NCBI GenBank assembly: GCA_031400595.1
Contig: JANNQG010000004.1
Location: 13,985 to 77,984 of the forward strand
Length of the DNA stretch: 64,000 nt
Direction of reading: 5' to 3'
Source: Cyclobacteriaceae bacterium
GTDB lineage: Bacteria > Bacteroidota > Bacteroidia > Cytophagales > Cyclobacteriaceae
The notes below the pieces were generated by a model. That model had not been told where the DNA came from and did not search any database. It saw only the letters and a program-made list of their open reading frames with translations. The number at the start of each line of letters is the position of its first letter. Position 1 is the first letter of the stretch. The position numbers and the translations under genes are program-made. Positions 48,874-53,608 of the stretch are shown piece by piece.

Positions 48874-50025
48874 ATGAAGAATCATTTTGACCTTATTATT
48901 GTCGGTGCCGGAGTGCTAGGGACATTTCATGCTTATCATGCTGCCAAATTTGGTAAAAAAGTGTTATTGGTAGAGAAAGATCAGTACCCCACACAAGCTA
49001 CGGTTCGAAACTTTGGTCAAGTCGTGCCTTCTGGAATGGGCGGAGATTGGTTTCATTATGGGGTAAGAGGAACAGAACTGTATAAACAAATCCAACAAGA
49101 GTTTGATATCTCCATCCGAAACAATGGCTCTGTTTATATTGCTTCTGATGCCGATGAGCAACAACTGATTCATGAACTAAAAGCGATCATGGATGTTCGG
49201 GGCTATGAGGCAGTGCTACTCACCACTGAGGAATGCTTGGCAAAATGGCCTGCGCTACAAAGTACCTATTGCAAAGAGGCGCTATTCTTTCCGCAAGAAG
49301 TAAGCGCTGAGCCAGAGAAAATGATTTTCAAATTGCTGGAATACATACGAATAAATTTTCAAAACCTGACCTATCGTCCAGCCACTACGATTATAGATTG
49401 CGCAATATCGAGCAACTGGGTCAGGGTGGTTTCCAATCAAAAAGAAGAGTTCACGGCCGATAAAGTTATCATTTGTAACGGAGGAGAATTCAAATTGCTA
49501 TTTCCGGATTTGTTCAGAGAGAGTGGCATTGTAACCAGCAAGCTACAGATGCTACGCACGCTGGCAATGAAAGATGTAGCCCTGGAAGGAAACATATTAA
49601 CAGGCCTCACAATCAGGAGGTACGAGTCATTTCAAGAGTGCGCTTCTTTTAAAAGCATAAAGACTCCCGACCATCTAGCCGAATTGAAGAAATGGGGAAT
49701 TCACATTCTCTTCAAAAAAGCAATTGATGGCTCCATTATTATTGGTGACTCGCACGAATACGCTGACGTGAACCACACCGATGACTTGGGATTTGGACAA
49801 AATGAATACATCAATCGACTGATGCTAAACGAAGCGCAACGCATTGTCAACTTTGACGTAACTCAAATTGCAACTGCCTGGTCTGGCTTTTATCCGCAGC
49901 ACAATGAAAAAGACATTGTGGAGATTGACATCGAAGATAAAATTCATATCCGAACTGCGATTGGGGGAAAAGGCATGACCACTTCGGCAGGCTATGCAGA
50001 GGAGAGCATCAAAAAATTAATTTGA
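48874..50025 (+). CDS. hpnW: FAD-dependent oxidoreductase, TIGR03364/HpnW-type (phosphonate-associated DAO family)
   Basis: Rossmann 'IIVGAGVLGTFHAYHA', signature 'ATVRNFGQV', 'IIGDSHEY', 'GGKGMTTSAG'; context with PhnX-like, PhnZ and DUF5690. Confidence 0.85.
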   Translation: MKNHFDLIIVGAGVLGTFHAYHAAKFGKKVLLVEKDQYPTQATVRNFGQVVPSGMGGDWFHYGVRGTELYKQIQQEFDISIRNNGSVYIASDADEQQLIHELKAIMDVRGYEAVLLTTEECLAKWPALQSTYCKEALFFPQEVSAEPEKMIFKLLEYIRINFQNLTYRPATTIIDCAISSNWVRVVSNQKEEFTADKVIICNGGEFKLLFPDLFRESGIVTSKLQMLRTLAMKDVALEGNILTGLTIRRYESFQECASFKSIKTPDHLAELKKWGIHILFKKAIDGSIIIGDSHEYADVNHTDDLGFGQNEYINRLMLNEAQRIVNFDVTQIATAWSGFYPQHNEKDIVEIDIEDKIHIRTAIGGKGMTTSAGYAEESIKKLI

Positions 50026-50152
50026 AGATGAAACAATTTGAAGATGTGAAGATATTCCACCATCTCTAAAGGCTAAATTTTTAAATTGACTAATTTTCAA
50101 ATCTTCAAATTGGATACCATTTTCAAATTATCTAATTTTCAAATCTTCAAAT
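50019..50152. repeat. Octamer-built inverted repeat between hpnW and the PHP gene
   Basis: Left ATTTGAAG/ATGTGAAG units; right 8-bp-phased GGCTAAAT TTTTAAAT TGACTAAT TTTCAAAT CTTCAAAT ... TTTCAAAT TATCTAAT TTTCAAAT CTTCAAAT. Confidence 0.75.
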
Positions 50153-50159
50153 TGAAAAC

Positions 50160-51008
50160 ATGTGGTCTAATTTCCATACTCATTCTAATTTTTGCGATGG
50201 GAAAAGCACGCTAGACGAGCACATTCAAAAAGCAAAAGAATTTCGGTTAAAAAGTCTTGGTTTTTCTTCACACGCACCAGTGCCCTTCGAATGCAATTGG
50301 TGTATGAAAACCGAAAAATTAGAGTCGTATTTGCTGGAAATTCAAAGGTTGAAATCAACAACCAATGAATTGCAAGTATACACAGGTCTAGAAGTAGACT
50401 ATATACCAGGTATCGTATCCCCCACTACATTCACCGATCGACTTGACTACACCATTGGCTCCATCCATTTCGTAGATACTTTCGAGAATGGTACGCCCTG
50501 GGAAATTGACGGATTACATGTTCACTTTTTAAAAGGACTTGATGAAATCTTCCATCAGAACTACAAGGCAGCTTTTACCCGCTATTTTGAATTGACCCGC
50601 GAAATGATCGTTACTGCCTGCCCAACCGTTATCGGTCATCTCGATAAAATGAAAATTCAAAACCCCGACAATAAATTTTTTAATGAACACGAAACCTGGT
50701 ACCAGGAGCAGATTAAAAAAACAATTCAAACCATCAAAGATTCAGGCGCCATTGTAGAAGTAAACACAAGGGGGATTTATCAAAAGAAAACAACCGCGAC
50801 CTACCCAAGCCCGTGGATATTGGAATTGCTTGAACACCAAAAGATTCCGATAACCATCAGTTCTGATGCACACCATGCCGATGACCTGATCAACGAGTTT
50901 CAGTCAACTGCCCTACTTCTTCAACAAGTCGGCTTTAAAAAGATTCAAATTCTAAGTGACGGTGAGTGGAAACCATTTACCTTTAACCAAAACGGAATAA
51001 TCTATTGA
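50160..51008 (+). CDS. PHP-family phosphatase, HisJ/HisK histidinol-phosphatase-like
   Basis: 'NFHTHSNFCDG', 'FSSHAP', 'GLEVDY', 'IGSIHFV', 'IGHLDKMK', 'EVNTRG', 'SSDAHH'. Confidence 0.88.
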   Translation: MWSNFHTHSNFCDGKSTLDEHIQKAKEFRLKSLGFSSHAPVPFECNWCMKTEKLESYLLEIQRLKSTTNELQVYTGLEVDYIPGIVSPTTFTDRLDYTIGSIHFVDTFENGTPWEIDGLHVHFLKGLDEIFHQNYKAAFTRYFELTREMIVTACPTVIGHLDKMKIQNPDNKFFNEHETWYQEQIKKTIQTIKDSGAIVEVNTRGIYQKKTTATYPSPWILELLEHQKIPITISSDAHHADDLINEFQSTALLLQQVGFKKIQILSDGEWKPFTFNQNGIIY

Positions 51009-52871: not shown

Positions 52872-52898
52872 CTCATGTTAAGTAATATTAACATGAAG

Positions 52899-52914
52899 TT
52901 AACAATTTAGTAAT
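52899..52914 (+). promoter_or_regulatory. Motif TTAACAATTTAGTAAT (copy at the HAD 3' end)
   Basis: 15/16 identical to 53673-53688. Confidence 0.5.
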
Positions 52915-52915
52915 A

Positions 52916-53608
52916 TTAAACTACACTTGCGTGCGAATTAATTATTCCTAGCACTTCAGGAATTCGGCTGATTAAATGAGTGTGAGGAGTCACTAATAGT
53001 TGCTCGTGTGTAAATGCACCTGTTGTAATTCCGATTACTAGCCCACAGCCTGCTGCATTGCCTTCGGCCAAATCCGAAGCCGTATCACCTACTTTGGCCA
53101 CGCGCTTCACATCACTTACGCCAGCTAACTCCATGGCTCTGAAAATTAAATCCGGATGTGGACGTCCATGAGCTACTTCATCACTTGTCACACTACCATC
53201 AATTAACTTACTTTTTTCCCAAGCCATCCGTTGAAGAAGAGCATCAACAATTGGCCGATCAAATCCGGTATCAACAAATACTTTTATTCCAGCAGCCTTC
53301 AACTGACGAAATGTTTCTGAAACGCCTTCATTCTCCTCTACTGTCTTGTCGTTCTCATAAAACAAAATCATGTCTTCTACAAAATCGGCATGTATGGATC
53401 GAATCAAATCATCGCTGACTTCTTGATAGTCCAACAATTCCAACAGCTGACGAATGGCAACAGGCTTGGGAATTCCCATTACCAAACTGGCCTGCTCAAT
53501 TGTAATTTCTAGTCCTACTTTGGCAAAAGACTTTTTAAGTGTGCGCTGCACATCATAATTTTCTTTCACGGTTGTTCCCGCTAAATCAAATACTATTAAG
53601 TCAATCAT
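52916..53608 (-). CDS. phnX: Phosphonatase-like HAD hydrolase (TIGR03351 PhnX-like / HpnX)
   Basis: Motif I 'FDLAGTT' (Ala replacing the second Asp, as in PhnX); Schiff-base-Lys motif 'MGIPK'; 'GRPHPD'; 'KVGDTASDLAEGNAAG'. Confidence 0.85.
   Translation of the reverse strand: MIDLIVFDLAGTTVKENYDVQRTLKKSFAKVGLEITIEQASLVMGIPKPVAIRQLLELLDYQEVSDDLIRSIHADFVEDMILFYENDKTVEENEGVSETFRQLKAAGIKVFVDTGFDRPIVDALLQRMAWEKSKLIDGSVTSDEVAHGRPHPDLIFRAMELAGVSDVKRVAKVGDTASDLAEGNAAGCGLVIGITTGAFTHEQLLVTPHTHLISRIPEVLGIINSHASVV

What the first reader, a model, noticed from the sequence alone, without database searches (positions are those of the whole stretch)
48874..53608. Transaminase-free aminophosphonate route: FAD oxidoreductase plus PhnX-like hydrolase
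Seen: an HpnW-type oxidoreductase and a HAD with DLAGT and the MGxxK Lys, but no phnW, phnY, phnA or C-P lyase genes in the window. Known: PhnX needs phosphonoacetaldehyde, usually made by PhnW; characterised Pbf-type FAD enzymes oxidatively deaminate (N-methyl)-2-AEP to it. Inference: here the FAD enzyme fully replaces PhnW and may accept N-methylated headgroups from phosphonolipids.
Basis: partly seen in the sequence, partly recalled or inferred. Interest (0 to 1): 0.65.

Follow-up and report, generated by a model that had tools for sequence, protein, structure and literature searches.

The report
Transaminase-free aminophosphonate breakdown gene cluster
A Cytophagales-type bacterium carries a gene cluster that should free phosphate from aminophosphonates using an FAD amine oxidase instead of the usual transaminase; this route is already published, and only its hydrolase belongs to a sister family that nobody has yet assayed.

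Summary
48874-50025(+) is a TIGR03364/PbfD FAD amine oxidase. 52916-53608(-) is a HAD with DLAGT and the MGxxK cap lysine. The 100%-complete genome has no PhnW, canonical PhnX, PhnY, PhnA, PhnJ or TauD-type hydroxylase.

Zangelmi et al. 2023 showed that PbfD oxidases turn N-methyl-AEP and AEP into phosphonoacetaldehyde and replace PhnW in pbfD-phnX(-phnZ) clusters.

These are the same four genes as the published Mariniblastus cluster.

The real difference is the hydrolase. It is not canonical PhnX (109 bits against a cutoff of 220; catalytic His56 is Ala). It belongs to the unassayed "phosphonatase-like" family TIGR03351.

New comparative evidence says this family does cleave phosphonoacetaldehyde:
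- In 301 Bacteroidota genomes it occurs only with PbfD (14 of 14) and never with PhnW.
- Close PbfD homologues pair with PhnY/PhnA instead.
- Natural fusions exist: PbfD–PhnX-like, PhnX-like–PhnW and PhnZ–PhnX-like.

Whether this PbfD, which sits on the PbfD1 side of the tree, handles plain AEP as well as N-methyl-AEP is open. Verdict: a new member of a known kind, of modest interest.

The parts
48874..50025 (+). PbfD-family FAD-dependent aminophosphonate oxidase (TIGR03364), cytoplasmic. Predicted reaction: (N-methyl-)2-aminoethylphosphonate + O2 -> phosphonoacetaldehyde + (methyl)amine + H2O2.
   Evidence: TIGR03364 347.6 bits (cutoff 285.1) and PF01266. 31% identity to PbfD1 and 27% to PbfD2 over the full length. 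Falls inside the PbfD clade against PbfB/PbfC outgroups, 99/98 support.
52916..53608 (-). PhnX-like HAD hydrolase (TIGR03351 type); predicted phosphonoacetaldehyde hydrolase.
   Evidence: TIGR03351 214.1 bits (cutoff 218.9); TIGR01422 109.3 (cutoff 220). Equivalents of Asp12, Ala14, Thr16, Gly50, Lys53, Arg160, Asp186 and Asp190 are conserved; His56->Ala, Tyr128->Phe. AF2 model pLDDT 93.7; best PDB match is PhnX 1rql, TM 0.86.
51005..52300 (+). DUF5690 MFS-fold inner-membrane protein; predicted aminophosphonate importer. Its start overlaps the PHP stop by 4 nt.
   Evidence: PF18943 547.7 bits. AF2 model pLDDT 86; the top 8 PDB matches are organophosphate:Pi antiporters G6PT1/SLC37. It sits next to PbfD or PhnW in clusters of every hydrolytic pathway type.
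53749..54324 (+). PhnZ-type HD diiron oxygenase. Predicted reaction: (R)-1-hydroxy-2-aminoethylphosphonate -> glycine + Pi. No partner hydroxylase in the genome.
   Evidence: TIGR03276 214.7 bits (cutoff 214.6). 159.7 bits to PhnZ 4mlm against 116 to TmpB; DYIGE, HDxGH, HEK, NHV and WDE motifs are all aligned. No PF02668 protein in the genome.
50160..51008 (+). Extra HisJ-family PHP phosphatase sitting between pbfD and DUF5690; substrate unknown.
   Evidence: TIGR01856 144.1 bits (cutoff 90.2). It is the only HisJ-type gene in the genome, while a canonical bifunctional HisB is on contig 21. Kept at this position only in same-family relatives.
46687..47313 (+). XRE-HTH + cupin regulator (PuuR-like architecture); probable small-molecule-responsive regulator of the cluster.
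   Evidence: PF07883 plus PF01381/PF12844. Found beside PbfD clusters in 9 of 12 relative loci, about 10 of 15 surveyed Bacteroidota loci, and Pedobacter.
47339..48640 (-). Purple-acid-phosphatase-like metallophosphoesterase, divergent from pbfD.
   Evidence: PF00149 plus PF16656. Present in the 3 nearest relatives. A distant metallophosphoesterase (25-26% identity) lies in the same clusters of another family.
52290..52871 (-). 193-aa protein with an N-terminal signal-like sequence and no family match.
   Evidence: No Pfam or NCBIfam hit. Conserved at this position in nearest relatives and in G111 (34% identity).
41468..46465 (-). SusD-like (41468-42985) and SusC-like TonB-dependent transporter (43079-46465); probable outer-membrane uptake for the locus.
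   Evidence: Pfam SusD-like_2; Plug/CarboxypepD_reg. Syntenic with the phosphonate genes in relatives.
38612..41356 (-). 914-aa beta-propeller + AcpA/PLC-family phosphoesterase lipoprotein; candidate for releasing headgroups from phosphono- or phospholipids.
   Evidence: Weak PF04185 and TIGR03397 matches plus propeller repeats. Homologues lie beside PhnZ-PhnX-like-DUF5690-PbfD in a second family (L032, L033) and beside DUF5690-PhnW-PhnX in G053.

Best explanation
The locus is a Bacteroidota version of the published PbfD-dependent 'hydrolytic' aminophosphonate pathway. The proposed sequence is as follows. Aminophosphonates (AEP, N-methyl-AEP, hydroxy-AEP), possibly freed outside the cell from phosphonolipids or phosphonoglycans and taken across the outer membrane by SusC/D, enter the cytoplasm through the DUF5690 MFS permease. 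The PbfD oxidase deaminates N-methyl-AEP, and probably AEP, to phosphonoacetaldehyde with release of (methyl)amine and H2O2. The PhnX-like HAD forms a Schiff base through its cap lysine (Lys48, the equivalent of PhnX Lys53). It transfers the phosphoryl group to Asp8 (Asp12), giving acetaldehyde and phosphate. PhnZ separately cleaves imported (R)-hydroxy-AEP to glycine and phosphate. Shown here: family memberships, residue conservation, genome-wide absence of PhnW/PhnX/PhnYA/C-P lyase/PhnY*, co-occurrence, synteny and gene fusions. Inferred: every substrate and reaction of these particular proteins.
For: (1) PbfD membership: TIGR03364 347.6 > 285.1. The protein falls inside the PbfD clade against PbfB, PbfC and another DAO, 99/98 support. 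PbfD1 and PbfD2 make phosphonoacetaldehyde from M1AEP and AEP (PMC10590968).
(2) The published PbfD2 locus of Mariniblastus fucicola, fetched here, is DUF5690-PbfD2-PhnX-AraC-HD. These are the same four functions as in the window.
(3) PbfD proteins 66-69% identical to the window's sit next to bona fide PhnY (674 > 635.65) and PhnA (490 > 407.55) in Pedobacter, with the same gene layout (by Pfam families) in Mucilaginibacter. This PbfD subclade therefore feeds phosphonoacetaldehyde consumers.
(4) In 301 Bacteroidota genomes, PhnX-like HADs (E<=1e-35) occur in 14. All 14 are among the 16 genomes with PbfD, 11 of them within 5 kb of it, and none has PhnW.
(5) Natural fusion proteins exist: PbfD-PhnX-like (615-644 aa, e.g. 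in Pirellula MAGs), PhnX-like-PhnW (628 aa; 9 distinct full-length sequences from four sources) and PhnZ-PhnX-like (about 420 aa). Their HAD halves carry the same Lys53/Ala56 signature.
(6) The Asp+2 position is Ala (DLAGT), as in PhnX. In HAD phosphomonoesterases this is the general acid/base Asp (established HAD knowledge). The cap Lys is kept in 148 of 150 family representatives.
(7) The genome has no other route from phosphonoacetaldehyde to phosphate.
Against: The HAD fails the PhnX model (109 vs 220 bits) and is marginally below the TIGR03351 cutoff (214.1 vs 218.9). [quoted passage not shown] It is Ala here and is never His in 150 family representatives. No TIGR03351 member has been assayed in the searchable literature. 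The window's PbfD is only 27-31% identical to the characterised enzymes. It groups with PbfD1, which handles AEP poorly (kcat/KM 130 M-1 s-1, KM 71 mM). pbfD and the HAD gene are on opposite strands 3 kb apart, so co-transcription is not shown.
Confidence: 0.8

Rival explanations
1. The route is specialised for N-methylated AEP (mono-, perhaps di-methyl) and handles plain AEP poorly. PbfD would then not truly stand in for PhnW, and the organism would largely be unable to use AEP.
For: In the tree, the window's Bacteroidota subclade is sister to PbfD1 of A. baumannii (100/100) and separate from the PbfD2-like clade. PbfD1 discriminates 18-fold against AEP with KM 71 mM, and also takes dimethyl-AEP.
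Against: The PbfD1 branch is long and its sequence was transcribed from a figure. Identity is only 31%. A same-family genome (G111) has the same cluster with a PbfD2-like enzyme at the same position, which suggests the two subtypes are interchangeable. With no PhnW in the genome, AEP, the most abundant natural phosphonate, would otherwise go unused.
Confidence: 0.25
2. This is the original TIGRFAM proposal. The oxidase acts on 1-hydroxy-2-aminoethylphosphonate, and the PhnX-like HAD cleaves the resulting 1-hydroxy-2-oxoethylphosphonate, a substrate different from phosphonoacetaldehyde. That would explain why the HAD family differs from PhnX in its cap residues.
For: The TIGR03364 description quoted in PMC10590968 says this. 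The HAD cap differs from PhnX at His56, Tyr128 and Cys22 and is about 9 residues shorter. PhnZ in the cluster shows that hydroxy-AEP is relevant to this locus.
Against: The text of the study reports activity of PbfD1 and PbfD2 only towards AEP and its N-alkyl derivatives, although HAEP derivatives were synthesised for testing. Close PbfD homologues pair with PhnY/PhnA, which are phosphonoacetaldehyde and phosphonoacetate enzymes. A PhnX-like-PhnW fusion links the HAD to the AEP transaminase product. PhnZ already accounts for hydroxy-AEP.
Confidence: 0.08
3. The HAD is an ordinary phosphomonoesterase (for example a phosphoglycolate or sugar phosphatase) that merely resembles PhnX, and the cluster releases phosphate from esters only.
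For: It gives weak matches to phosphoglycolate phosphatase and PpaX models. Many HAD phosphatases match the model with TM about 0.8. The neighbourhood is rich in phosphoesterases.
Against: The Asp+2 general acid/base is Ala, and the cap Schiff-base Lys is kept in 148 of 150 family representatives. The best sequence and fold matches are PhnX. The family co-occurs strictly with PbfD and is fused to PbfD, PhnW and PhnZ.
Confidence: 0.04

Closest known systems
PbfD2-PhnX(-PhnZ) pathway of Mariniblastus fucicola (Zangelmi et al. 2023, iScience, PMC10590968)
   Same: Same gene set: DUF5690 permease, TIGR03364 oxidase, a HAD C-P hydrolase and a PhnZ-type HD oxygenase. No PhnW in the genome. The logic is the same: oxidative deamination to phosphonoacetaldehyde followed by hydrolysis.
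   Different: The Mariniblastus HAD is a true PhnX (TIGR01422 334.8 > 220) and only 24% identical to the window's HAD. The oxidases are 27% identical and lie in different PbfD subclades. The regulator is AraC-type there and HTH-cupin here. The window adds a PHP phosphatase, a purple-acid-phosphatase-like enzyme and SusC/D.
PbfD1 of Acinetobacter baumannii (same paper)
   Same: Nearest characterised relative in the tree; 31% identity over the full length; TIGR03364 member.
   Different: PbfD1 sits in a phnW-phnX cluster as an accessory N-methyl-AEP / dimethyl-AEP oxidase. Here there is no PhnW, so the oxidase must be the entry enzyme.
Phosphonoacetaldehyde hydrolase PhnX (Bacillus cereus, PDB 1FEZ/1RQL/2IOF; TIGR01422)
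   Same: HAD fold with a helical cap; DxAGT nucleophile motif; cap Met-Gly-x-x-Lys with the Schiff-base lysine; Arg160, Asp186 and Asp190 equivalents. Best structural match, TM 0.86.
   Different: About 25% identity and below the family cutoff. His56->Ala, Tyr128->Phe, Cys22 absent, cap about 9 residues shorter. The lack of His56 is family-wide: 0 of 150 representatives.
TIGR03351 'phosphonatase-like hydrolase' / TIGR03364 synteny noted by TIGRFAM curators
   Same: Exactly this gene pair. JGI annotates the window's homologues with these names.
   Different: The curators guessed a substrate other than AEP (hydroxy-AEP). The evidence here (PhnY/PhnA alternates, the PhnW fusion) points to phosphonoacetaldehyde itself.
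AepP, the GlpT-like MFS 2-AEP permease of Pseudomonas putida (Murphy et al. 2021, PMC8316502)
   Same: An MFS transporter of the organophosphate:Pi antiporter structural type, encoded beside AEP catabolic genes.
   Different: DUF5690 is a separate Pfam family with no MFS_1 match at E<=0.001 and only 14-18% identity to the SLC37/GlpT structures. No function is published for it.

Membership tests
PbfD / TIGR03364 FAD-dependent aminophosphonate oxidase | Score above the curated NCBIfam cutoff | tested here: met
   347.6 bits vs 285.1; 347.2 in the genome scan.
PbfD / TIGR03364 FAD-dependent aminophosphonate oxidase | Groups with PbfD rather than PbfB, PbfC or other PF01266 enzymes | tested here: met
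   The PbfD clade including the window has 99/98 support against PbfB, PbfC and a second DAO. PbfB, PbfC and PbfD1 were transcribed from Fig. S2 of PMC10590968 and may carry OCR errors.
PbfD / TIGR03364 FAD-dependent aminophosphonate oxidase | N-terminal dinucleotide-binding GxGxxG | tested here: met
   DLIIVGAGVLG at residues 6-16.
PbfD / TIGR03364 FAD-dependent aminophosphonate oxidase | Oxidises N-methyl-AEP or AEP to phosphonoacetaldehyde | not testable with these tools
   Only inferred, from context and from 27-31% identity to the assayed enzymes.
Phosphonoacetaldehyde hydrolase PhnX (TIGR01422, EC 3.11.1.1) | Score above the curated cutoff | tested here: not met
   109.3 vs 220. The Mariniblastus PhnX scores 334.8 as a positive control.
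Phosphonoacetaldehyde hydrolase PhnX (TIGR01422, EC 3.11.1.1) | Asp12 nucleophile in DxAGT, and Schiff-base Lys53 in the cap | tested here: met
   Asp8, Ala10 and Lys48 align to Asp12, Ala14 and Lys53.
Phosphonoacetaldehyde hydrolase PhnX (TIGR01422, EC 3.11.1.1) | Catalytic His56 | tested here: not met
   Ala51 here. In 150 family representatives the position is Ala, Val or Gly in 148, and never His.
Phosphonoacetaldehyde hydrolase PhnX (TIGR01422, EC 3.11.1.1) | Arg160 and the Mg-site Asp186/Asp190 | tested here: met
   Arg149, Asp175 and Asp179.
TIGR03351 phosphonatase-like hydrolase | Score above the curated cutoff | tested here: inconclusive
   214.1 vs 218.9, which is 4.8 bits short. Only 1 of the 14 Bacteroidota homologues passes. 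JGI names the close homologues 'phosphonatase-like hydrolase'.
TIGR03351 phosphonatase-like hydrolase | Synteny with TIGR03364 and no PhnW | tested here: met
   3 kb from pbfD in the window. 14 of 14 genomes with the HAD also have PbfD, and none of the 14 has PhnW.
PhnZ (HD mixed-valent diiron oxygenase, TIGR03276) | Score above the cutoff, and metal- and substrate-binding residues | tested here: met
   214.7 vs 214.6. 159.7 bits to PhnZ 4mlm, with the Tyr24/Glu27 'DYIGE', HDxGH, HEK, xHV and WDE motifs aligned.
PhnZ (HD mixed-valent diiron oxygenase, TIGR03276) | Partner 2-oxoglutarate hydroxylase PhnY*/TmpA | tested here: not met
   No PF02668 match anywhere in the genome.
DUF5690 (PF18943), MFS fold | Pfam match and a 12-helix MFS fold | tested here: met
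   547.7 bits. Model pLDDT 86, pTM 0.86; the top hits are SLC37/G6PT with TM 0.62-0.65.

The most novel reading that the evidence does not exclude
The TIGR03351 'PhnX-like' proteins would be a second, widespread lineage of phosphonoacetaldehyde hydrolase that works without the His56 of canonical PhnX. DUF5690 would be a so-far unrecognised aminophosphonate permease family shared by Bacteroidota and Planctomycetota. With PbfD and PhnZ they would form a self-contained four-gene module. In this Cytophagales lineage the module is wired to SusC/D, PLC-like and acid-phosphatase-like enzymes and a HisJ-type PHP phosphatase. The whole would then be a phosphonolipid or phosphonoglycan 'utilisation locus' running from the outer membrane to the cytoplasm.
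Probability: 0.5. Interest if true: 0.45.

Novelty: new member of a known kind. Interest (0 to 1): 0.3.

Why it matters
Aminophosphonates are a sizeable pool of organic phosphorus, and surveys usually count phnW, phnX, phnA, phnJ or phnZ as markers. In the Bacteroidota sample here, most genomes with a hydrolytic route carry pbfD plus the PhnX-like HAD. That HAD mostly falls below curated cutoffs and is named only 'HAD hydrolase-like protein' by NCBI, so marker-based surveys would miss these organisms. The comparative evidence gathered here gives a concrete, cheap biochemical target: one HAD, one substrate. It also nominates DUF5690 as a transporter family to test. It does not change the known pathway logic.

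Tried and rejected
(1) I considered that the PhnX-like HAD might take PbfD's imine product directly by transimination, which would make His56 dispensable and explain the strict PbfD co-occurrence. I largely rejected this after finding recurrent PhnX-like-PhnW fusions, because PhnW releases the free aldehyde.
(2) I looked for shared operator-like motifs in the divergent spacers (SusC|HTH, PAP|pbfD, HAD|phnZ). Only AT-rich 9-10-mers were shared, which is not distinguishable from chance.
(3) The sigma-70 promoter and terminator scan was no better than shuffled sequence and is not suited to Bacteroidota promoters.
(5) A literature search for biochemistry of TIGR03351 or any function of DUF5690 found nothing.
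(6) I tested whether the PHP gene is simply the histidine-pathway phosphatase. It is not, because a bifunctional HisB exists elsewhere in the genome.
(7) DUF5690 is not exclusive to phosphonate clusters. In 6-7 of 22 genomes it sits in unrelated contexts.
(8) Fold search of the HAD model does not discriminate well: many HAD phosphatases reach TM about 0.8.

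
Full report
**What is there**

The window comes from a Bacteroidota genome. Its nearest relatives are Cytophagales, Flammeovirgaceae and Cyclobacteriaceae MAGs. Around the finding the genes are as follows:

| Coordinates | Strand | Product |
|---|---|---|
| 41468-42985 / 43079-46465 | - | SusD / SusC |
| 46687-47313 | + | HTH-cupin regulator |
| 47339-48640 | - | purple-acid-phosphatase-like metallophosphoesterase |
| 48874-50025 | + | TIGR03364 FAD oxidoreductase |
| 50160-51008 | + | HisJ-family PHP phosphatase |
| 51005-52300 | + | DUF5690 membrane protein (4-nt overlap with PHP) |
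| 52290-52871 | - | 193-aa secreted protein, no family |
| 52916-53608 | - | HAD hydrolase |
| 53749-54324 | + | HD-domain oxygenase |

The oxidoreductase scores 347.6 bits on TIGR03364 (cutoff 285.1). The HAD starts MIDLIVFDLAGTT and has ...VMGIPKP... in its cap.

**Genome-wide check**

The assembly is 4.15 Mb in 29 contigs and 100% complete. The phosphonate genes it lacks are listed below. The window's HAD is the best PhnX-like sequence in the genome.

| Family | Best hit vs cutoff |
|---|---|
| PhnW | 34 vs 400.8 bits |
| canonical PhnX | 107.5 vs 220 |
| PhnA | 33.7 vs 407.55 |
| PhnY | 262 vs 635.65 |
| PhnJ | none |
| TauD-type hydroxylase (PhnY*/TmpA) | none |

The cluster therefore has to work without a transaminase. 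Its PhnZ has no partner hydroxylase.

**Relation to published work**

Zangelmi et al. 2023 (PMC10590968) named TIGR03364 enzymes PbfD. They showed that PbfD1 (A. baumannii) and PbfD2 (Mariniblastus fucicola) oxidise N-methyl-AEP and AEP to phosphonoacetaldehyde using O2. They proposed that PbfD2 'surrogates' PhnW, and they listed 13 pbfD-phnX clusters, most of them with phnZ. A 2026 paper treats this as part of the standard 'superpathway'.

I fetched the Mariniblastus locus. It reads DUF5690-PbfD2-HAD-AraC-HD, the same four functions as in the window.

**What differs: the hydrolase**

- The Mariniblastus HAD is a true PhnX (TIGR01422 334.8 bits).
- The window's HAD scores 109 on that model and 214.1 on TIGR03351 'phosphonatase-like hydrolase' (cutoff 218.9). 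It is 24% identical to the Mariniblastus enzyme.
- Against B. cereus PhnX it keeps the equivalents of Asp12, Ala14, Thr16, Met49, Gly50, Lys53, Thr126, Arg160, Asp186 and Asp190.
- It has Ala for His56 and Phe for Tyr128, has no Cys22, and its cap is about 9 residues shorter.
- His56 is listed with Asp12 and Lys53 as 'directly involved in the catalysis' (PMC11203657).
- The difference is family-wide. In the 150 best cluster representatives of a profile search, Lys53 is kept in 148. The His56 position is Ala in 129, Val in 13 and Gly in 6, and it is never His.
- The AF2 model (pLDDT 93.7) matches PhnX best (TM 0.86), but other HAD phosphatases are close behind.
- No biochemical study of this family was found.

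**Evidence that the PhnX-like HAD nevertheless cleaves phosphonoacetaldehyde**

1. Alternate modules. PbfD proteins 66-69% identical to the window's lie beside genuine PhnY (674 bits) and PhnA (490 bits) in Pedobacter, and the Mucilaginibacter locus shows the same Phosphodiest-Aldedh-PbfD layout by Pfam. In a Spirosomataceae MAG a homologue 68% identical lies beside a PhnX-like HAD. The same oxidase subclade thus feeds either the PhnY/PhnA route or the PhnX-like HAD.
2. Phyletic pattern in 301 Bacteroidota genomes (same sample each time). The 14 genomes with PhnX-like span 11 genera in 5 families, so they are not independent. Counts are in the table that follows this list.
3. Linkage. The HAD lies within 5 kb of pbfD in 11 of the 14 (coordinates).
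4. Fusions. The profile search returned PbfD-PhnX-like proteins (615-644 aa), a PhnX-like-PhnW protein (628 aa) and PhnZ-PhnX-like proteins (about 420 aa).
   - The PhnW fusion exists as 9 distinct full-length sequences from JGI, ENA, Logan and NCBI.
   - The 621-aa PbfD fusion occurs in several Pirellula MAGs.
   - These are therefore not gene-calling accidents.
   - PhnW's only product is phosphonoacetaldehyde, so this fusion ties the Ala56-type HAD to that substrate.

| Feature | Genomes | Note |
|---|---|---|
| PbfD | 16 | |
| PhnX-like HAD (E<=1e-35) | 14 | all within the PbfD set |
| PhnW (E<=1e-60) | 9 | none among those 14 |

**Which PbfD is this?**

In a maximum-likelihood tree the window's protein sits in a Bacteroidota subclade that includes the Pedobacter and Mucilaginibacter enzymes. 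That subclade is sister to PbfD1 (100/100, but on a long branch). It is separate from the PbfD2-like clade, which holds the Planctomycetota and most other Bacteroidota enzymes.

A same-family genome, G111, has the same cluster with well-conserved neighbours:
- SusC is 81% identical, DUF5690 71%, PhnX-like 59% and PhnZ 66%.
- Its PbfD, however, is PbfD2-like. It is on the opposite strand and only 28% identical to the window's.

One PbfD subtype has therefore displaced the other in situ, which argues that the two do the same job. PbfD1 is a poor AEP oxidase, so whether the window's enzyme handles plain AEP well remains open.

**DUF5690**

- It lies beside PbfD in the window, in 10 of the 12 relative loci, in the three more distant Bacteroidota loci and in Mariniblastus.
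- It is linked to PbfD in most of the surveyed genomes, and 15 of the 16 genomes with PbfD carry a copy.
- It is adjacent or close to PhnW in all three genomes with a PhnW above cutoff. One has a PhnW-PhnX cluster and one a PhnW-PhnY-PhnA-PhnZ cluster.
- Its model is an MFS fold whose eight best PDB matches are organophosphate:phosphate antiporters (G6PT1/SLC37); GlpT also matches at TM 0.65.
- It is the likely aminophosphonate importer and is distinct from the GlpT-like AepP.
- It also occurs alone in unrelated contexts.

**PhnZ and accessory genes**

- The HD protein is closer to authentic PhnZ (159.7 bits) than to TmpB (116), with all ligand and substrate motifs aligned. With no hydroxylase in the genome it must act on imported hydroxy-AEP.
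- The PHP phosphatase is an extra copy, because a bifunctional HisB exists elsewhere. It is confined to this bacterial family.
- PLC/AcpA-like propeller phosphoesterases recur next to such clusters in two other lineages. A metallophosphoesterase (25-26% identity) lies in the clusters of another family.
- This fits headgroup release from phosphonolipids, but that remains inference.

**Verdict**

The locus is a new member of the PbfD-based hydrolytic pathway in which the hydrolase belongs to the unassayed TIGR03351 sister family.

Noticed in passing
window 50026-50159: The pbfD-PHP spacer holds two copies of a 23-nt unit, CTAATTTTCAAATCTTCAAATTG, about 21 nt apart. It could be a regulatory site or a small repeat element.
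   Followed up: no
L030 (G111, same family) 9823-10974 vs window 48874-50025: The same gene cluster in a same-family genome carries a PbfD2-like oxidase on the opposite strand, only 28% identical to the window's, while the neighbouring genes are 49-81% identical. One PbfD subtype has replaced the other in situ. The window's lineage also gained the PAP-like gene at that spot.
   Followed up: partly
proteins P0441, P0444, P0463 (PbfD-HAD); P0445 (HAD-PhnW); P0431, P0438, P0486 (PhnZ-HAD): Natural fusion proteins join the PhnX-like HAD to PbfD, to PhnW or to PhnZ. They recur in many independent assemblies, for example Pirellula MAGs.
   Followed up: partly
L012 (MAG SZAS-61) 9968-13254: This relative keeps PbfD-PHP-DUF5690 but lacks the HAD and PhnZ genes at the expected place, and its DUF5690 frame is shorter. 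The cluster may be decaying, or this may be an assembly effect.
   Followed up: no
L023 11182-12414 (Mucilaginibacter) and L048 10686-11960 (G287): A second PF01266 oxidase lies beside PbfD or PhnW and DUF5690. It groups with PbfC of Azospirillum (100/99), so some Bacteroidota clusters hold a PbfC-like enzyme as well.
   Followed up: partly
G171 (same genus as the window's genome), locus L044: The same-genus genome has DUF5690 but no PbfD, PhnX-like HAD or PhnW. There DUF5690 sits next to succinate-dehydrogenase-like, methyltransferase and MFS genes. The phosphonate cluster is therefore accessory within the genus, and DUF5690 may have other substrates.
   Followed up: partly
window 26439-41356: Two paralogous proteins of about 920 aa, beta-propeller plus AcpA/PLC-like phosphoesterase, together with a PhoA-like fusion and a second SusC/D pair, make the 30 kb upstream a phosphorus-scavenging island.
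   Followed up: partly
DUF5690 protein, window 51005-52300: Invariant Arg/Lys residues sit at the end of helix 1 (R39, K40) and in the long seventh helix (R247, D248, R250, D251). This recalls the two substrate-binding arginines of GlpT, a comparison made from memory. Alignment A1 and the model are; no superposition was done.
   Followed up: no
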